DNA of 64,000 nt from Parcubacteria group bacterium Gr01-1014_8 (GTDB taxonomy: Bacteria > Patescibacteriota > Minisyncoccia > Phycocordibacterales > UBA2100), in the NCBI GenBank assembly GCA_007376385.1, contig VMGC01000003.1:69259-133258 (forward strand). Direction: 5' to 3'. A program made the position numbers and the translations under genes. Position 1 is the stretch's first letter. Every line of letters begins with the position of its first letter. The notes beneath the pieces were generated by a model, which did no database searches, was not told the DNA's origin, and was given only the letters and a program-made list of their open reading frames with translations. Of the stretch, positions 41,171 to 57,609 are shown piece after piece.

Positions 41171-41321
41171 ATAGTCGTCCTCGCTTCGCTTCGACCCCTT
41201 AGTTTTCAACAAAAAACCGCGCCACTGGCGCGGATGGTTCATCCGAGTCCAGTGGTCCCGTATTGGGACATGGGTGACCCGTGAGATGGCGGCCTTGCGG
41301 CCTATCTCATGGGTTCGCGGC

Positions 41322-41350
41322 ACTATACACCCCATGAGATAACAAGTCAA
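41322..41350 (-). promoter_or_regulatory. Candidate sigma-70-type promoter of the rplC-led operon (TTGACT-17-TATAGT)
   Basis: Minus-strand TTGACTTGTTATCTCATGGGGTGTATAGT; predicts a ~255-nt structured leader containing repeat copy C. Confidence 0.5.
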
Positions 41351-41414
41351 AAACTTCTCGTACAGAACAGATTTTCTATCTCACGGGGTACACGAGGAGT
41401 GTACGGGATGCAAA

Positions 41415-41849
41415 CTAACTTGTTGCAGGGGGATTGTCGGCAGCGGACGCCAGCGAAGCGTTTTCCTTTCTGTGATGAATATCGTAGAGATGTTTCAAGA
41501 GCACCATGGTAAGCGCCAACGAGACCAAAATGACGCCATATAACGCAGGCATGGACAGCTGTCCTATCGGTCCTGCGGATGACTGGAAGCTGGAAGGAAC
41601 AAACGTTTGTTCCGGAAGGAAATCTTCCGCGACTCCCTGTTTCTCTGCTTCGCCTGCAAGCGACTCAACTAAAACGGCAAGTTCGCTCTCAGATAGTTCG
41701 CTTGAACGCGGATCACTCAATAAAGATGCGCGTATTTCATCGCGAAGCAGTACTGAATCATCCGCTTGCGCAAAAACACTTATCGGGAGAACGAGCGCTC
41801 CTGCAAACAAAATCACTAGTGCAGTTTTTTTAATTGAATGCACGTTCAT
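41415..41849 (-). CDS. Hypothetical exported protein (signal peptide plus C-terminal TM anchor)
   Basis: MNVHSIKKTALVILFAGALVLPISVFA signal-like N-terminus; hydrophobic C-terminal segment followed by HHRKE. Confidence 0.45.
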   Translation of the reverse strand: MNVHSIKKTALVILFAGALVLPISVFAQADDSVLLRDEIRASLLSDPRSSELSESELAVLVESLAGEAEKQGVAEDFLPEQTFVPSSFQSSAGPIGQLSMPALYGVILVSLALTMVLLKHLYDIHHRKENASLASAADNPPATS

Positions 41850-41853
41850 ACGT

Positions 41854-54863: not shown

Positions 54864-57562
54864 TGCCGTATACTGCAGGAGTGGAGCTCTTCTCGCGGCA
54901 TCGCACGAAGTTTTTATACGGCGCTGCCGGCATTTCGGCATTCCTGATTGCCGCAAGCATCGTGTATCCCCCTCTGTGGCTGCTCGTTTTTGCGGCCCCC
55001 GCGCCTTTCTTCGCGGCCCTTCTCTCGCGTGAGATCGTTTCTTCCCGCATACATGCCATAACTGCGGGATCCGTATTCGGCATCGTCTTCAACGGCGTCA
55101 TCAATGCAAGCGGATGGGCAGTATACCCCCTCGACTGGATAGGGGTCGACGCTCCCTTGCTTTCAGCGGCGATGATCGGCATTGCCTGGATCTTGCTTTC
55201 ATGTCTGATGGGGATTACCAGCGCATTTTTTGCATTGCTCATTTTCGAGATAAGAAATCGGCACCACTCCGATATTTTTCTGATCTCAAGTATTGGCATC
55301 ATTTGGCTCATTGCCGAATCGTTCCGCGTGTTCCTCTTTTCCATCTTTATGCTTGGTGCGGAAAGCGGCCTCGATATTGGATTCTCCCTCGGCTCGGTCG
55401 GATATGCGTTCGGAAATGCATCAAGCGAATTTTGGATAGCTCTCGCCAGGTGGGGAGGTGTTGCCCTCCTCTCGCTGTTTCCCATTCTGCTTGCAGCAAG
55501 CTTATCCTTCGCCATCGCCGCATGTATACGCAAAAAAAATGGAGTGCGTCGGTACCTCCTGTTATCGGGTGCCATTCTGTTCGTATTCCTCGGCAGTTCA
55601 GCTGCCGCAAGCTTTGCCGCCGAGCGGGCTCGCGGTTCAACAAGTGCCTGGAAAGATACTCCAAAACTGACGATCGTGATGGCGCAAACGAATTTTCCTG
55701 CTCAACTCACGCTGAGCACTGAAGAAAACGCCGAGCGGACGGATGTTGTCTTTGACATCGCAGAAACGCTGAAACGGCTTGCCATCAAACCCGACGCGCT
55801 CATCCTACCGGAGGGCATAGGATCTCGCATCGATCTATCGAACTACGCCGCGATATCCGAACTTTTGCCGGATAAGACATTACTCGTTCATGGAAAATAC
55901 GAACACCGTATCGGGAAGCCGTCCGTCGTACAAGTCCGCTCGCACGTTATCGGAGGCGGTACAGAGGTCACTGACAAGCAATTCATCATTCCATACGGCG
56001 AATACCCTCCCTATCATCTGCAGCTGCCCTTGAAGTACCTCAACTACCGGCTTTACGCGGCTTTAAAAAAGAATCGAGAGTACGTCGGCGGAAACAACGT
56101 TGCTCTCGGCAGTGCGGCAAAGATACCGGTAGGAGTGCGGATGTGTTCGGAAATATTTTCTTCACGGCTCTACAAAGACTTAACAGCTACGCATGGTGCG
56201 GGAATCCTCGTGCATTCATCTTCAATTGCCATGTTCCACGACTCAAATTTTATCCAGCGGGAAATGCGCTCGGCGGCGCGCATCCGAGCTGTCGAGAATC
56301 GCGTCCCGCTCGTGCAAGCCATGAACGGTGCGCGCGGAACTGCTTTTGATTGCCGCGGAAAAGAGCTTATCCCCGAATTCTCATCCGCACTTTTCAACGT
56401 ATATTCCATTTCACGCGAAGCATCGTGCGTAGGAGAAAATGTCAACGAGCGGGCGCGACCTGCACAAAGCCGGCTCTCATGGAATAAAAAAATGAAAGCC
56501 GCAGCTTTACATGCGTGGTATTCGCTCTTTCCGGAACAGGCCGCTAAAAAGCTCGGTGGTCTGAACATGATGCAGATAAGTATACGGGAAACAGAACTCG
56601 AATATTGGATGCGGATTTTCGGTTACAAGAACATTTTTGACGAGATAGAGAAAGACGGTTTAGATCCCCTGCAACGGCCCGCTGATGCGCGCGTCGTTGT
56701 CGGCCAATGTCACACGCAAGCTCACTATGCGGGGCGGATGGCTGTAAAATTGTTTAACCTGTCAGCACTCACCGAAAATATTATTGATATTCGATGTGGA
56801 TTCGGCTTTTATCACGGGATCATAGAAGCCTCGCTCGGAAATTTGGGAAGTGATAGAAACGTCAAATCATTTTCCGAGAAGTGCCAAGCATATGGAGATA
56901 ACCCCCTGCGTCGAGCCTCCTGCTTACACGCACTTGGCCATGGTCTCATGGTGTTCTACAATTACGACCTTCCAACGGTGCTCGAAAAATGCAGTTCTCT
57001 CCCCTCATCAGATCTTGGAAAAAAGCTGTGCTACCACGGGGCTTTTATGGAAAATATTTTCTCTGATCTGGGATTCGGTGTGTCAGAGCACGAATCGGAG
57101 TGGATAGGCGGAAGCGATCCGGACTTCCCTTGCGTGGCAAAATCCCTCGATTCACTACCAGCCGCAGTACGGGAGCAGTGTTATGCGAATCAATCTCTTG
57201 TGTGGGGTTTAAAGCGCGGCGGATTTGACTTTAACAACGCACAGACAGGCTGCGTGCGTGCACCACGAGAAGTAAGAGATATGTGCTTCATCGCAATCGG
57301 CTATAACGCAGCATTGCCAATAGCGCATGCCGACGAGAGAAAGGTTATCGAAGGGTGCGCAACTATGCCGGGATCTTCCTATGAAAAAAAATGTCTTGTG
57401 GGCGCATTGCTGATCCGCAGCACATTGTGGCCATCAGAAGCAGGTCTGAAAAACCCTCTATTTTGTTCCGCTCTCGGATATAACGACCTTGCACTGTGTG
57501 AAAATTTCGTCAAAGAAACGCTCGATTGGATATTCGAAACAGAAAAGGAGCCTGCACGTTAA
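54863..57562 (+). CDS. Fusion: Lnt-like polytopic membrane plus carbon-nitrogen hydrolase (apolipoprotein N-acyltransferase-like) domain, joined to C-terminal Cys-repeat modules paralogous to the upstream gene (ORF-track start 54773; ATGA-coupled start at 54863 preferred)
   Basis: About 8 N-terminal TM helices; CN-hydrolase triad context ILPEG ... K ... VRMCSEIF; C-terminal CQAYGDNPLRRASCLHALGHGLMVFY-type repeats. Confidence 0.6.
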   Translation: MPYTAGVELFSRHRTKFLYGAAGISAFLIAASIVYPPLWLLVFAAPAPFFAALLSREIVSSRIHAITAGSVFGIVFNGVINASGWAVYPLDWIGVDAPLLSAAMIGIAWILLSCLMGITSAFFALLIFEIRNRHHSDIFLISSIGIIWLIAESFRVFLFSIFMLGAESGLDIGFSLGSVGYAFGNASSEFWIALARWGGVALLSLFPILLAASLSFAIAACIRKKNGVRRYLLLSGAILFVFLGSSAAASFAAERARGSTSAWKDTPKLTIVMAQTNFPAQLTLSTEENAERTDVVFDIAETLKRLAIKPDALILPEGIGSRIDLSNYAAISELLPDKTLLVHGKYEHRIGKPSVVQVRSHVIGGGTEVTDKQFIIPYGEYPPYHLQLPLKYLNYRLYAALKKNREYVGGNNVALGSAAKIPVGVRMCSEIFSSRLYKDLTATHGAGILVHSSSIAMFHDSNFIQREMRSAARIRAVENRVPLVQAMNGARGTAFDCRGKELIPEFSSALFNVYSISREASCVGENVNERARPAQSRLSWNKKMKAAALHAWYSLFPEQAAKKLGGLNMMQISIRETELEYWMRIFGYKNIFDEIEKDGLDPLQRPADARVVVGQCHTQAHYAGRMAVKLFNLSALTENIIDIRCGFGFYHGIIEASLGNLGSDRNVKSFSEKCQAYGDNPLRRASCLHALGHGLMVFYNYDLPTVLEKCSSLPSSDLGKKLCYHGAFMENIFSDLGFGVSEHESEWIGGSDPDFPCVAKSLDSLPAAVREQCYANQSLVWGLKRGGFDFNNAQTGCVRAPREVRDMCFIAIGYNAALPIAHADERKVIEGCATMPGSSYEKKCLVGALLIRSTLWPSEAGLKNPLFCSALGYNDLALCENFVKETLDWIFETEKEPAR

Positions 57563-57565
57563 GAC

Positions 57566-57589
57566 AAAACCCGCCTCTCGGCGGGTTTT
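57566..57589. terminator. Bidirectional rho-independent terminator between the convergent Lnt-like gene and rpsJ
   Basis: aaaacccgcc-tctc-ggcgggtttt. Confidence 0.6.
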
Positions 57590-57609
57590 GTGGTGGGAGG
57601 CAACGCCTC

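What the first reader, a model, noticed from the sequence alone, without database searches (positions are those of the whole stretch)
41171..57609. About 16.5-kb insertion splitting rpsJ from rplC; S10 operon headless
In most bacteria tuf-rpsJ-rplC are contiguous and rpsJ is the first gene of the S10 operon. Here rplC (40450-41058) heads the r-protein operon with its own near-consensus promoter (41322-41350). rpsJ lies 16.5 kb away (57610-58005) as a monocistronic gene, and tuf a further 4.4 kb on. The intervening DNA is the Cys-rich/YcaO island. This points to insertion of accessory DNA into one of the most conserved bacterial loci. It also implies that any L4-mediated S10-leader autoregulation cannot operate in the classical way.
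Basis: partly seen in the sequence, partly recalled or inferred. Interest (0 to 1): 0.7.

Follow-up and report, generated by a model that had tools for sequence, protein, structure and literature searches.

The report
Old gene island splitting rpsJ from rplC
In this ultra-small groundwater bacterium (Kaiserbacteria, candidate phyla radiation) rpsJ really is cut off from rplC by 16.5 kb. The intervening YcaO peptide-modification cluster is an old, inherited trait of the clade, not a fresh insertion. The rplC operon has its own conserved promoter and a structured RNA leader absent from Rfam.

Summary
rplC (40450-41058), rpsJ (57610-57981/58005) and tuf (62387-63586) lie on the minus strand, and 16,551 bp separate rpsJ from rplC.

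- The interval has native composition, with no integrase, tRNA or flanking repeats.
- Homologous, partly collinear gene sets fill the same interval in many related Kaiserbacteria. An independent assembly of the same organism shows the identical layout.
- More distant Paceibacteria keep tuf-rpsJ tight but have rpsJ-rplC gaps from 8 bp to 6 kb. The junction is therefore an old, permissive site.

The island is a linear azole peptide (LAP/TOMM-type) cluster: a YcaO, a SagB dehydrogenase and a conserved Cys/Gly/Ser-rich precursor candidate. It also holds PaaK-like ligases, a PRTase-propeller fusion and Cys-rich secreted or membrane proteins.

rpsJ has its own clade-conserved promoter and terminator. 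rplC is preceded by a conserved promoter and a roughly 100-nt leader: a covarying hairpin, a CCAMTGG segment complementary to the loop of an intrinsic terminator, then the T-tract. About 35 Paceibacteria loci carry this leader and Rfam has no match. It is probably an r-protein attenuator, analogous to the gammaproteobacterial L4/S10 leader, which is not expected here anyway.

The parts
40450..41058 (-). rplC (uL3), first gene of the r-protein operon (rplD, rplW, rplB, rpsS... follow downstream)
   Evidence: Pfam Ribosomal_L3; 56-78% identical to rplC of relatives; gene calls
41104..41179 (-). Second TATAGT box (41162-41179) and a 56-nt hairpin CCCTGT...ACAGGG (41104-41159) between the leader terminator and rplC. 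Shared with L081 only. Role unknown.
41208..41316 (-). Structured leader RNA upstream of rplC. It has an extra 5' hairpin, the P1-like hairpin GTCCC..GGGAC (41254-41272), the segment CCACTGG (41249-41255), and the intrinsic terminator CCGCGCC-AGT-GGCGCGG plus T-tract (41233-41210), whose loop and top (CCAGTGG) are complementary to CCACTGG.
   Evidence: Homologous leaders in about 35 loci. Covariation.
41322..41350 (-). Promoter-like site TTGACT-17-TATAGT for the rplC leader and operon, bracketed by CCCRTGAGATA inverted repeats (41278-41387)
   Evidence: conserved TTGCAT-17-TGTAtAGT in relatives
41415..41849 (-). g144: small secreted or membrane protein, conserved immediately upstream of rplC in relatives
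41854..42876 (-). g340: Cys-containing secreted protein of unknown function (independent gene call gives 308 aa), conserved next to rplC in relatives
42858..43724 (-). TPR-repeat protein
   Evidence: Pfam TPR; homologues at the same place
43721..44863 (-). g380: protein of unknown function, conserved in the cluster
44869..45195 (-). g108: candidate LAP precursor peptide. N-terminal hydrophobic segment, conserved '..ADAP' motif, then a Cys/Ser/Thr/Gly/Asp-rich tail.
   Evidence: family members in L161 and L168 at the same position or next to a YcaO
45270..46463 (-). g397: polytopic membrane protein with no family hit. Relatives carry HTTM-type membrane proteins in the cluster.
46462..48171 (+). 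Fusion of an orotate-PRTase-like domain with a PQQ/BamB-like beta-propeller (independent gene call starts at 46531, 546 aa)
   Evidence: more than 2,100 homologues, mostly Paceibacteria/Kaiserbacteria
48217..49644 (+). YcaO cyclodehydratase, TOMM SagD-type
   Evidence: Pfam YcaO 152 bits; TIGR03604 186.6 bits, below the cut-off of 219
49647..50375 (+). SagB-family FMN dehydrogenase (nitroreductase fold)
   Evidence: Pfam Nitroreductase; TIGR03605 123.7 bits, above the cut-off of 78.4
50473..50673 (-). 66-aa signal-peptide-bearing Cys-rich peptide with a strong Shine-Dalgarno sequence, downstream of the two ligase genes
50923..53564 (-). Two paralogous PaaK/F390-synthetase-like (CapK_C) adenylate-forming enzymes (50923-52200 and 52197-53564)
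53421..54863 (+). g480: Cys-rich membrane or secreted protein (gene call gives 421 aa). It shares a Cys-rich domain with the C-terminus of g929.
54773..57562 (+). g929: apolipoprotein N-acyltransferase (Lnt)-like membrane domain fused to a Cys-rich C-terminal domain (gene call gives 899 aa)
   Evidence: TIGR00546 90 bits, below the cut-off of 133
57561..57589 (.). Bidirectional terminator-like hairpin AAAACCCGCC-GAGA-GGCGGGTTTT between the convergent g929 and rpsJ
57610..57981 (-). rpsJ (uS10), stand-alone gene of 123 aa from ATG 57981 (the ORF extends to TTG 58005)
   Evidence: Pfam Ribosomal_S10
57994..58022 (-). rpsJ promoter TTGCCT-17-(GTG)CATACT, conserved upstream of rpsJ in the clade
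58023..62386 (-). tuf-rpsJ spacer of 4.4 kb. The low-GC stretch (0.38-0.43) holds DUF2000, a 110-aa ORF, a RusA-like resolvase and a 255-aa protein. The YCII-like g111 (61643-61978) is conserved at this place in relatives.
62387..63586 (-). tuf (EF-Tu)
   Evidence: 89-96% identical to close relatives

Best explanation
The window comes from a Candidatus Kaiserbacteria genome (Paceibacteria, CPR).

In this lineage tuf, rpsJ and the rplC-led r-protein operon are three separate transcription units. rpsJ has its own conserved promoter and a terminator. The rplC operon has its own conserved promoter followed by a structured leader that ends in an intrinsic terminator.

This transcriptional break at the rpsJ|rplC junction is seen across many Paceibacteria. 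DNA can therefore accumulate there without disturbing ribosomal gene expression, and gap sizes range from 8 bp to more than 16 kb.

In the Kaiserbacteria clade the gap was filled long ago by a cluster that has since been inherited vertically and partly rearranged. The cluster comprises:
- a linear azole-containing peptide (TOMM/LAP-type) system, with a YcaO cyclodehydratase, a SagB-type dehydrogenase and a Cys/Ser/Thr/Gly-rich precursor candidate;
- two PaaK-like adenylating enzymes;
- a PRTase-beta-propeller fusion;
- a TPR protein;
- several Cys-rich secreted or membrane proteins.

Shown: the layout, its conservation, the native composition, the conserved promoters, and the covarying leader structure.

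Inferred: first, the leader works as an r-protein-responsive (probably uL4 or uL3) transcription attenuator or translational operator, analogous to the E. coli S10 leader. Second, the cluster makes an azole-modified peptide. Third, the junction is permissive because it was already a transcriptional boundary.
For: Taxon.
- rpsJ and tuf relatives are Kaiserbacteria/Paceibacteria. P0001 names Parcubacteria group bacterium Gr01-1014_8.

Shared split.
- In the 19 closest GTDB species (tuf 89-96% identical where it lies in the locus) the tuf-rpsJ spacer is 0.45-7.5 kb. The rpsJ-rplC gap is 0.67 kb to more than 10 kb.
- 8 of 11 loci with 10 kb of downstream sequence carry homologues of the window's island genes.
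- Full intervals of 14.1, 13.8 and 13.4 kb carrying the same families occur in L165, L167 and the P0093 contig. In L161 the gene order next to rplC is collinear: g144-g340-TPR-g380-g108-g397 | PQQ-YcaO-SagB | ligases-g480. Island proteins there are 44-54% identical, against 68% for rplC.
- Outgroup species (tuf 73-82%) have a tuf-rpsJ spacer of 5-700 bp and an rpsJ-rplC gap of 8 bp to 6 kb.

Not a recent or mobile insertion.
- GC is 0.47-0.53, as in the flanks. Tetranucleotide correlation is 0.84 against 0.89 for the flanks, whose minimum is 0.83.
- There is no tRNA, no integrase or transposase domain, no border repeats and no rpsJ remnant.
- An independent assembly shows the identical layout.

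Transcription units.
- The rpsJ promoter is conserved in about 18 of 19 relatives and a terminator follows the gene.
- The rplC promoter is found by the scan and is conserved.

Leader.
- Covariance-model hits lie directly upstream of rplC and, at E below about 0.1, nowhere else in about 2 Mb.
- P1 and the terminator covary: 90.5% of cells are paired against 72.7% in shuffles, and the covariation score is 0.392 against 0.115, exceeded by 0 of 500 shuffles.
- The post-P1 segment pairs with the terminator loop. The summed pairing score is 202.5 against 140.8 +/- 5.1 for shuffles, and own versus swapped partners gives p = 1.4e-5.
- In many loci the T-tract ends only 2-10 nt before the rplC ATG. 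rplC can then only be transcribed by read-through.
- The window's 5' UTR folds with z = -7.5.

Island function.
- The g108 family is described.
- LAP clusters (YcaO plus nitroreductase) are documented in CPR genomes (PMC7298704).
Against: - No experiment or transcriptome supports the promoters, the terminator read-through or any protein-RNA interaction.
- The covariance models did not detect the window's own leader at E <= 5. Its homology rests on manual alignment with L005, L082 and L161-type leaders.
- The alignment used for the pair counts was fitted to the model, which inflates the apparent pairing.
- The YcaO scores below the NCBIfam TOMM cut-off. No E1-like/SagC partner, leader peptidase or exporter was identified.
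- The cluster lies elsewhere in at least one lineage (L163/L164). Three close relatives have unrelated content after rpsJ (L002, L008, L017). Repeated acquisition at the same site is therefore not fully excluded.
Confidence: 0.75

Rival explanations
1. Recent horizontal insertion. A mobile or accessory 16.5-kb island integrated into the rpsJ-rplC junction of this particular genome or species and beheaded a previously intact S10 operon.
For: - Outgroup Paceibacteria have near-contiguous rpsJ-rplC.
- Relatives show real insertion events exactly at the rpsJ stop codon, with duplicated and diverged rpsJ 3' ends and toxin-antitoxin cassettes (L001, L008, L011). L001 also has an IS-type transposase next to rpsJ.
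- Island content varies between close relatives.
Against: - The composition is native.
- The window has no integrase, tRNA, border repeats or rpsJ remnant.
- Homologous and collinear islands at 44-54% protein identity occupy the same interval in several species.
- The rplC promoter and leader predate large inserts.
Confidence: 0.07
2. Functional coupling. The peptide-modification cluster stays next to the rplC operon because its product or enzymes act on the ribosome. Examples would be a ribosome-targeting azole peptide with self-protection linked to uL3/uL4/uL22, or YcaO-dependent modification of an r-protein. Alternatively, the upstream same-strand genes (g397 to g144) may be co-expressed with ribosomal genes.
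For: - The g144-g340-TPR-g380 block is kept directly upstream of rplC, on the same strand, across divergent species.
- PMC7298704 cites a Rhizobium LAP that targets the ribosome.
- From my own recall, not checked here: E. coli YcaO has been linked to modification of ribosomal protein S12.
Against: - The linkage is equally explained by inheritance at a permissive site.
- The cluster occurs away from r-protein genes in L163/L164.
- A promoter and a terminator separate g144 from rplC.
- The precursor candidate resembles Gly/Cys/Ser-rich microcin-B17-type peptides, which target gyrase, not the ribosome (my own knowledge).
Confidence: 0.12
3. The element upstream of rplC is not an r-protein-sensing leader. 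It may be only the terminator of the upstream unit plus a promoter, a stand-alone small RNA, or a metabolite riboswitch.
For: - In the window, L081 and L014 about 150 nt and a second TATAGT/TATAAT box lie between the terminator and rplC. The short RNA could therefore be an independent product there.
- No ligand has been identified and no rRNA mimicry was tested.
Against: - In most loci the T-tract ends 2-10 nt before the rplC ATG, which leaves no room for another promoter.
- Where rpsJ is close, it has its own separate terminator upstream of the leader promoter.
- The element is found only upstream of rplC.
- It matches no known riboswitch in Rfam.
Confidence: 0.2
4. Assembly or binning artefact. 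A chimeric contig joins unrelated segments between rpsJ and rplC.
For: The source is a metagenome-assembled genome.
Against: - The identical layout appears in an independently assembled ENA contig (L166).
- The same architecture appears in complete or long contigs of other species.
- Composition is uniform across both junctions.
Confidence: 0.02

Closest known systems
E. coli-type S10 operon with the L4-responsive leader (Zengel and Lindahl; reviewed in PMC3616713)
   Same: [quoted passage not shown] A structured 5' leader containing an intrinsic terminator sits just before the first gene of the operon, which suggests attenuation and/or translational control.
   Different: - rpsJ is not part of the unit, and the leader precedes rplC rather than rpsJ.
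- There is no sequence or structure match to any Rfam family.
- The E. coli leader is restricted to Gammaproteobacteria.
- The ligand here is unknown.
Archaeal arrangement, with uS10 apart from the uL3-led cluster (PMC10833476). From my own knowledge, cyanobacteria and plastids also place rps10 with tufA.
   Same: rplC heads the L3-L4-L23-L2 cluster and rpsJ is not in it. In outgroup Paceibacteria rpsJ sits directly after tuf.
   Different: In the window's clade rpsJ is also detached from tuf (0.45-7.5 kb) and has its own promoter. rpsJ and rplC stay in the same neighbourhood and orientation, separated by a lineage-specific cluster.
L4 r-leader candidate of Archaeoglobi, upstream of rplC-rplD-rplW-rplB (PMC7247131)
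   Same: A conserved RNA motif in front of an rplC-led operon, with an r-protein of that operon as the presumed ligand.
   Different: It belongs to a different domain of life. No Rfam match was found for the window's rplC leader region. The Paceibacteria element includes a bacterial intrinsic terminator and pairing between an upstream segment and the terminator loop.
Linear azole-containing peptide (LAP/TOMM) gene clusters, including those reported in CPR genomes (PMC7298704) and microcin B17
   Same: An adjacent YcaO and SagB/nitroreductase-type dehydrogenase, plus a small precursor candidate with a Cys/Ser/Thr/Gly-rich C-terminal half.
   Different: - No recognisable E1-like/SagC partner, leader peptidase or transporter.
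- The precursor candidate has an N-terminal hydrophobic segment and many Asp residues.
- The cluster also carries PaaK-like ligases, a PRTase-propeller fusion, and Lnt-like and Cys-rich proteins.
- Its position at the rpsJ|rplC junction was not mentioned in the papers I read.
Genomic islands that integrate into the 3' end of a conserved gene (tRNA or tmRNA type) and duplicate the target end
   Same: In relatives L001, L008 and L011, cassettes lie between an intact rpsJ and a diverged copy of its last 31-59 codons. The homology ends exactly at the stop codon.
   Different: The cassettes are only 0.7-1.6 kb toxin-antitoxin modules without an integrase. Nothing of this kind flanks the 16.5-kb interval in the window.

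Membership tests
Classical bacterial S10 operon (rpsJ-led) | rpsJ immediately upstream of rplC and co-transcribed with it | tested here: not met
   A 16,551-bp gap. A terminator-like hairpin follows rpsJ, and rplC has a separate promoter and leader.
Classical bacterial S10 operon (rpsJ-led) | L4-responsive S10 leader upstream of rpsJ | tested here: not met
   No Rfam family matches in the window at gathering score. The rpsJ 5' UTR is only about 12 nt after a conserved promoter. 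The family is gammaproteobacterial (PMC3616713).
Classical bacterial S10 operon (rpsJ-led) | [quoted passage not shown] | tested here: met
   ORF layout and Pfam-annotated gene calls of the same DNA (L166).
str-linked rpsJ (archaeal/cyanobacterial type) | rpsJ directly downstream of tuf, with rplC heading a separate unit | tested here: inconclusive
   rplC heads its unit, so that part is met. The window's tuf-rpsJ distance is 4.4 kb and includes foreign-looking DNA, so that part is not met. Outgroup Paceibacteria have a tuf-rpsJ spacing of 5-700 bp.
Integrative mobile genomic island | Integrase, recombinase or transposase gene | tested here: not met
   No such domain in any island ORF (Pfam and NCBIfam).
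Integrative mobile genomic island | Flanking direct repeats or a duplicated target end | tested here: not met
   No shared k-mer of 10 nt or more between the two borders. The single 9-mer is within chance. No repeat family spans the borders. No rpsJ fragment occurs elsewhere in the window.
Integrative mobile genomic island | Deviant base composition | tested here: not met
   GC 0.47-0.53 and tetranucleotide r = 0.84, within the range of native windows. By contrast 58-62 kb deviates (GC 0.43, r = 0.61).
Integrative mobile genomic island | Presence or absence polymorphism among close relatives | tested here: inconclusive
   Most relatives carry homologous content at the site. Composition and order vary, and 3 of 11 close loci have other genes there.
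TOMM / linear azole-containing peptide cluster | YcaO cyclodehydratase | tested here: met
   Pfam YcaO 152 bits against a cut-off of 25.7. The best NCBIfam match is TIGR03604 SagD-type at 186.6 bits, below its cut-off of 219.
TOMM / linear azole-containing peptide cluster | SagB-type FMN dehydrogenase adjacent to the YcaO | tested here: met
   TIGR03605 123.7 bits against a cut-off of 78.4. The gene starts 3 nt after the YcaO stop.
TOMM / linear azole-containing peptide cluster | Precursor peptide with a Cys/Ser/Thr-rich core | tested here: inconclusive
   g108 has 9 Cys, and 69% of its last 45 residues are C/S/T/G. Family members lie in L161 and L168 at the same position or next to a YcaO. 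No modification has been demonstrated.
TOMM / linear azole-containing peptide cluster | E1-like/Ocin-ThiF (SagC) partner or RRE domain; leader peptidase; exporter | tested here: not met
   No such families were hit in any island ORF. Remote homologues were not excluded by structure prediction.
Ribosomal-protein autoregulatory leader (r-leader) | Conserved structured RNA in the 5' UTR of an r-protein operon across species | tested here: met
   About 35 loci carry it, always directly upstream of rplC.
Ribosomal-protein autoregulatory leader (r-leader) | Covariation supporting the structure | tested here: met
   (score 0.392 against 0.115, exceeded by 0 of 500 shuffles; slid controls at most 0.092). 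One search supports the pairing with the terminator loop.
Ribosomal-protein autoregulatory leader (r-leader) | Specific binding of an encoded r-protein and a regulatory response | not testable with these tools
   Needs binding, in vitro transcription or reporter assays.
Ribosomal-protein autoregulatory leader (r-leader) | Membership of a described Rfam r-leader family | tested here: not met
   Only chance-level hits at E <= 10 in 40900-41500 and none at gathering score.

The most novel reading that the evidence does not exclude
The long co-inheritance of an azole-peptide (YcaO/SagB) cluster with the head of the rplC operon may be functional. The peptide or the YcaO enzyme could act on the ribosome, either as an exit-tunnel or PTC-targeting LAP with immunity tied to the neighbouring uL3/uL4/uL22 alleles, or through modification of an r-protein. 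The new rplC leader would then integrate this with ribosome synthesis. In that case the rpsJ|rplC junction of Kaiserbacteria would be a dedicated ribosome-associated secondary-metabolite locus in a host-dependent, genome-reduced bacterium.
Probability: 0.1. Interest if true: 0.85.

Novelty: new variant of a known kind. Interest (0 to 1): 0.5.

Why it matters
The S10-spc-alpha cluster is the standard example of conserved gene order and is widely used as a phylogenetic marker block for CPR genomes.

In a whole CPR clade rpsJ is an isolated gene, and 13-16 kb of lineage-specific peptide-modification genes sit inside the block. This matters in three ways:
- for annotation and binning quality control;
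- for understanding how reduced genomes still tolerate flexible regions;
- for how ribosomal gene dosage is controlled outside the model bacteria.

The conserved promoter and leader with a terminator upstream of rplC is a concrete, testable candidate for the first r-protein regulatory RNA in the Patescibacteria. It would be a functional analogue of the E. coli L4/S10 attenuator that arose independently.

The recurrent cassette insertions exactly at the rpsJ stop codon in relatives point to an unrecognised integration hot spot.

Tried and rejected
- Exact look-up of the 131-aa rpsJ ORF found nothing. The called gene starts at ATG 57981.
- A metagenome scan with the PQQ-fusion protein alone found no confirmed relative. 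The second scan, with rplC, gave only three close relatives.
- Searches for border repeats, an rpsJ remnant or a tRNA at the island ends were all negative.
- Rfam at gathering score and at E <= 10 gave no meaningful hit for the rplC or rpsJ upstream regions.
- Covariance models R1 and R2 did not recover the window's own leader, which has an extra 5' hairpin. They recovered the Kaiserbacteria-type leaders only weakly. Homology there rests on manual alignment.
- The sigma-70 scan missed the rpsJ promoter (8 of 12 matches) and the rpsJ terminator, because its stem absorbs the T-run. Both were identified from conservation and by eye.
- The low-GC tuf-rpsJ spacer has no phage DNA match. Its only viral-family protein hit is to RusA.
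- Pfam and NCBIfam gave nothing for g144, g340, g380, g108, g397, g480 or the 66-aa peptide.
- I considered and rejected an assembly artefact.
- I also considered that the terminator at 41233-41210 merely ends the upstream g144 unit. I rejected this because the conserved promoter lies between g144 and the terminator.

Full report
OBSERVATION

The minus strand of the window carries rplC at 40450-41058 (Pfam Ribosomal_L3), rpsJ at 57610-58005 (Ribosomal_S10) and tuf at 62387-63586 (EF-Tu). The rest of the S10/spc cluster continues below rplC (Pfam-annotated gene calls of the same DNA). The rpsJ-rplC interval is 16,551 bp and tuf lies 4.38 kb beyond rpsJ.

One correction is needed. The rpsJ coding region most likely starts at ATG 57981 (123 aa). 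This agrees with an independent gene call and with alignments to relatives.

The layout is not an assembly artefact. A separately assembled ENA contig shows the identical rplC...rpsJ arrangement (L166).

ORGANISM AND WHAT RELATIVES LOOK LIKE

The closest rpsJ and tuf sequences belong to Candidatus Kaiserbacteria and other Paceibacteria, in the candidate phyla radiation. An identical island protein is recorded from 'Parcubacteria group bacterium Gr01-1014_8'.

I mapped the window's proteins onto 80 GTDB loci centred on rpsJ.

- Close clade: the 19 closest species (tuf 89-96% identical where it lies in the locus). rpsJ is detached on both sides. The tuf-rpsJ spacer is 0.45-7.5 kb and the rpsJ-rplC gap runs from 0.67 kb to more than 10 kb.
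- In that clade, 8 of 11 loci with 10 kb of downstream sequence contain homologues of the window's island genes. These include the PQQ fusion, YcaO, the SagB-like protein, both ligases, g397, g480, g929, TPR, g380 and g340.
- Outgroup Paceibacteria (tuf 73-82%). tuf-rpsJ stays tight at 5-700 bp, but the rpsJ-rplC gap runs from 8 bp to 6 kb.

Contexts of six homologues of the PQQ-fusion protein, each 50-52% identical to the window's, give the following picture.

| Locus or contig | Arrangement |
|---|---|
| L165 | complete rpsJ-rplC interval of 14.1 kb, same gene families |
| L167 | complete interval of 13.8 kb, same gene families |
| P0093 contig | complete interval of 13.4 kb, same gene families |
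| L161 | almost fully collinear island next to rplC; island proteins 44-54% identical, rplC 68% |
| L168 | island downstream of rpsJ; rplC beyond the locus |
| L163/L164 | cluster lies elsewhere in the genome |

Metagenome contigs L082, L083 and L123 also show g340, PQQ or TPR homologues upstream of rplC.

IS IT A MOBILE OR RECENT INSERT?

The evidence says no.

- GC content (0.47-0.53) equals that of the flanks.
- Tetranucleotide correlation to the rest of the window is 0.84, against 0.89 for native windows (minimum 0.83). The tuf-rpsJ spacer at 58-62 kb does stand out, with GC 0.43 and r = 0.61.
- There is no tRNA near the borders.
- No island ORF has an integrase or transposase domain.
- There are no border repeats beyond chance and no rpsJ fragment elsewhere in the window.

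The separation is therefore an old feature inherited by the clade.

WHAT THE ISLAND ENCODES

Reading from rplC outwards, the minus-strand genes are:

- g144;
- g340;
- a TPR protein;
- g380;
- g108;
- g397, a polytopic membrane protein.

The plus-strand genes that follow are:

- a fusion of an orotate-PRTase-like domain with a PQQ/BamB-type beta-propeller;
- a YcaO, whose best NCBIfam match is the TOMM SagD type at 186.6 bits, below that model's cut-off of 219;
- a SagB-family dehydrogenase, above its cut-off.

Back on the minus strand come:

- a 66-aa signal-peptide-bearing Cys-rich peptide;
- two paralogous PaaK/F390-synthetase-like ligases.

Finally, on the plus strand:

- g480;
- g929, an Lnt-like membrane domain fused to a Cys-rich domain shared with g480.

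g108 has an N-terminal hydrophobic segment, a conserved '...ADAP' motif and a Cys/Ser/Thr/Gly/Asp-rich tail. Family members sit at the same position in L161 and beside a YcaO in L168. It is a good candidate precursor of a linear azole-containing peptide.

YcaO plus nitroreductase LAP clusters have been reported in 93 further CPR genomes, 51 of them Parcubacteria (PMC7298704). The cluster type is therefore known. I found no mention of its position at the rpsJ|rplC junction in what I read. No SagC-like partner, peptidase or exporter was identified.

EXPRESSION ARCHITECTURE

rpsJ is preceded by TTGCCT-17-(GTG)CATACT at 57994-58022 and a 5' UTR of about 12 nt. The same 'TAGTGCATACTC...TCTATG' block precedes rpsJ in essentially all close relatives. 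A hairpin, AAAACCCGCC-GAGA-GGCGGGTTTT (57561-57589), lies between rpsJ and the convergent g929.

The promoter at 41350-41322 upstream of rplC is followed by a highly structured 5' UTR (262 nt, folding z = -7.5). This UTR contains a strong intrinsic terminator, CCGCGCC-AGT-GGCGCGG-TTTTTT, at 41233-41210.

THE rplC LEADER

Aligning the regions upstream of rplC from relatives revealed a conserved element.

- A promoter, TTGCAT-17-TGTAtAGT.
- A stretch reading 'CGCUACGUAC'.
- Hairpin P1.
- A segment GGACC-AAUGG.
- Optionally a second hairpin.
- An intrinsic terminator whose T-tract often ends only 2-10 nt before the rplC ATG.

A short form lacks the terminator and places the GGACCAAUAG motif about 6 nt before the ATG (for example L026, L030, L031, L041).

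Two covariance models built from these sequences find 20-30 significant hits in about 2 Mb of loci. All hits at E below about 0.1 lie directly upstream of rplC on the coding strand.

The structure is supported by covariation.

- 90.5% of cells are paired, against 72.7% in shuffles.
- The covariation score is 0.392 against 0.115, exceeded by 0 of 500 shuffles. Slid controls score at most 0.092.
- One caveat: the alignment was fitted to the model.

The segment after P1 is complementary to the loop and top of the terminator, and the two sides change together.

| Segment after P1 | Partner in terminator loop | Where seen |
|---|---|---|
| CCAATGG | CCATTGG or CTATTGG | several loci |
| CCACTGG | CCAGTGG | the window |
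| CACTAGA | TCTAGTG | one locus |
| ATGGCAGA | TCTGTCAT | one type |
| CAGCAA | TTGCTG | one type |

The summed pairing score over 34 leaders is 202.5, against 140.8 +/- 5.1 for shuffles. Own versus swapped partners gives p = 1.4e-5.

Rfam 15 has no match. I found no paper describing an r-leader for CPR. The nearest described item is an L4 candidate upstream of rplC in Archaeoglobi (PMC7247131).

In many genomes no other promoter fits between the terminator and rplC. The operon must then be transcribed by read-through. I therefore interpret the element as an attenuator or translational operator, most likely sensing an r-protein of the operon (uL4 by analogy, possibly uL3). That step is inference.

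The window's own leader has an extra 5' hairpin. About 150 nt more follow the terminator, including a second TATAGT box and a 56-nt hairpin shared with L081. The models did not detect the window's leader, and its homology rests on manual alignment.

WHY THE JUNCTION TOLERATES DNA

Where rpsJ is only 160-340 nt upstream of rplC (L050, L061, L064, L069, L070), the gap already holds an rpsJ terminator, the rplC promoter and the leader. The transcriptional break therefore predates the large inserts and makes the site permissive.

The site is also recombinationally active. In L001, L008 and L011 a toxin-antitoxin cassette lies between an intact rpsJ and a diverged copy of its last 31-59 codons.

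- L001: an AbiEii toxin and a SWIM-domain protein.
- L008: a MazE-like antitoxin and a Fic/Doc toxin.
- L011: a DCC1-like protein, an MNT nucleotidyltransferase and a HepT nuclease.

The two rpsJ copies are 78-90% identical at the nucleotide level, and the homology stops exactly at the stop codon. L034 has an exact 21-nt duplicate of the rpsJ end 135 nt downstream. L001 also has an IS-type transposase next to rpsJ. Nothing of this kind is seen in the window.

COMPARISON WITH WHAT IS KNOWN

- The E. coli L4-responsive S10 leader is confined to Gammaproteobacteria (PMC3616713). Its absence here is expected and is not a consequence of the split.
- uS10 is always separate from the uL3-uL4-uL23 cluster in Archaea (PMC10833476). 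From my own knowledge, cyanobacteria place rps10 with tufA. A 'headless' L3-led operon is thus a known state.
- What differs here is that rpsJ is isolated from both tuf and rplC with its own promoter. A LAP-type cluster has been co-inherited inside the ribosomal block across a CPR clade. The rplC operon carries a leader absent from Rfam and from the papers I read.

VERDICT

I rate the finding as a new variant of a known kind, with moderate interest (0.5). Most of that interest comes from the candidate r-protein leader and from the conserved, recombinationally active rpsJ|rplC junction.

Noticed in passing
window 41208-41350 (-); also L005, L014, L015, L020-L077 (many), L081-L083, L089, L104, L116, L123, L161, L165, directly upstream of rplC: A conserved promoter plus a structured leader with an intrinsic terminator upstream of rplC across Paceibacteria. 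P1 covaries, and the post-P1 segment pairs with the terminator loop. It is absent from Rfam 15. A short form without the terminator also exists (L026, L030, L031, L035, L041, L077).
   Followed up: yes
L001 10370-12161; L008 2866-3645; L011 751-1980; L034 about 135 nt after rpsJ: Toxin-antitoxin cassettes (AbiEii with a SWIM protein; MazE-like with Fic/Doc; DCC1-like with MNT/HepT) are inserted exactly at the rpsJ stop codon. Each is followed by a diverged duplicate of the last 31-59 codons of rpsJ. L034 has an exact 21-nt duplicate. No integrase lies within the cassettes.
   Followed up: partly
window 58100-62300: The tuf-rpsJ spacer is compositionally foreign (GC 0.38-0.43, tetranucleotide r = 0.61). 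It holds DUF2000, a 110-aa ORF, a RusA-like resolvase and a 255-aa protein. The YCII-like g111 (61643-61978) is conserved between tuf and rpsJ in relatives. There is no phage DNA match.
   Followed up: partly
window 41278-41387 and 1982-2073: The 11-mer CCCRTGAGATA occurs 8 times in the window (1.45 expected), as inverted pairs. These bracket the -35/-10 region of the rplC-leader promoter and a GGGGTATACT box upstream of the gene at 249-1763 (downstream of ftsH). L014 has the same inverted repeat just upstream of rplC. It may be an operator or a small palindromic element.
   Followed up: partly
window 50473-50673 (-): An unannotated 66-aa ORF with a strong Shine-Dalgarno sequence, a signal peptide and 7 Cys, directly downstream of the two PaaK-like ligase genes. 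Other small secreted Cys-rich peptides lie in the clusters of L165 and L167.
   Followed up: partly
window 46462-48171 (+): The orotate-PRTase-like / PQQ beta-propeller fusion belongs to a very large family (more than 2,100 hits at E <= 1e-20). Named hits are Paceibacteria or Kaiserbacteria, and the gene is usually next to YcaO and SagB. Its function is unknown.
   Followed up: partly
window 53421-54863 and 54773-57562: g480 and the C-terminal third of g929 share a Cys-rich domain (27% identity over 169 aa). The N-terminal part of g929 resembles apolipoprotein N-acyltransferase (Lnt).
   Followed up: partly
L032 1-7000 and 11300-19000: One outgroup genome keeps tuf-rpsJ tight but has two copies of the PQQ-fusion family. 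One copy, with g397 and g929 homologues, lies upstream of tuf. The other, with YcaO, SagB, g380 and TPR, lies downstream of rpsJ.
   Followed up: no
L095, L101, L110 (metagenome loci): In some other CPR contigs about 1-1.3 kb separates rplC from rplD, so other junctions of the block can also be interrupted.
   Followed up: no
window 57982-58005; L011 22-750: In this clade rpsJ carries a variable Lys/Ala/Pro-rich N-terminal extension ahead of the S10 domain. The ORF in L011 extends to 242 aa.
   Followed up: no
window 4902-5292 (+): A tmRNA gene (Rfam 139 bits) with tag peptide ANKTARGVLSPIQAKDLGLVFA.
   Followed up: no
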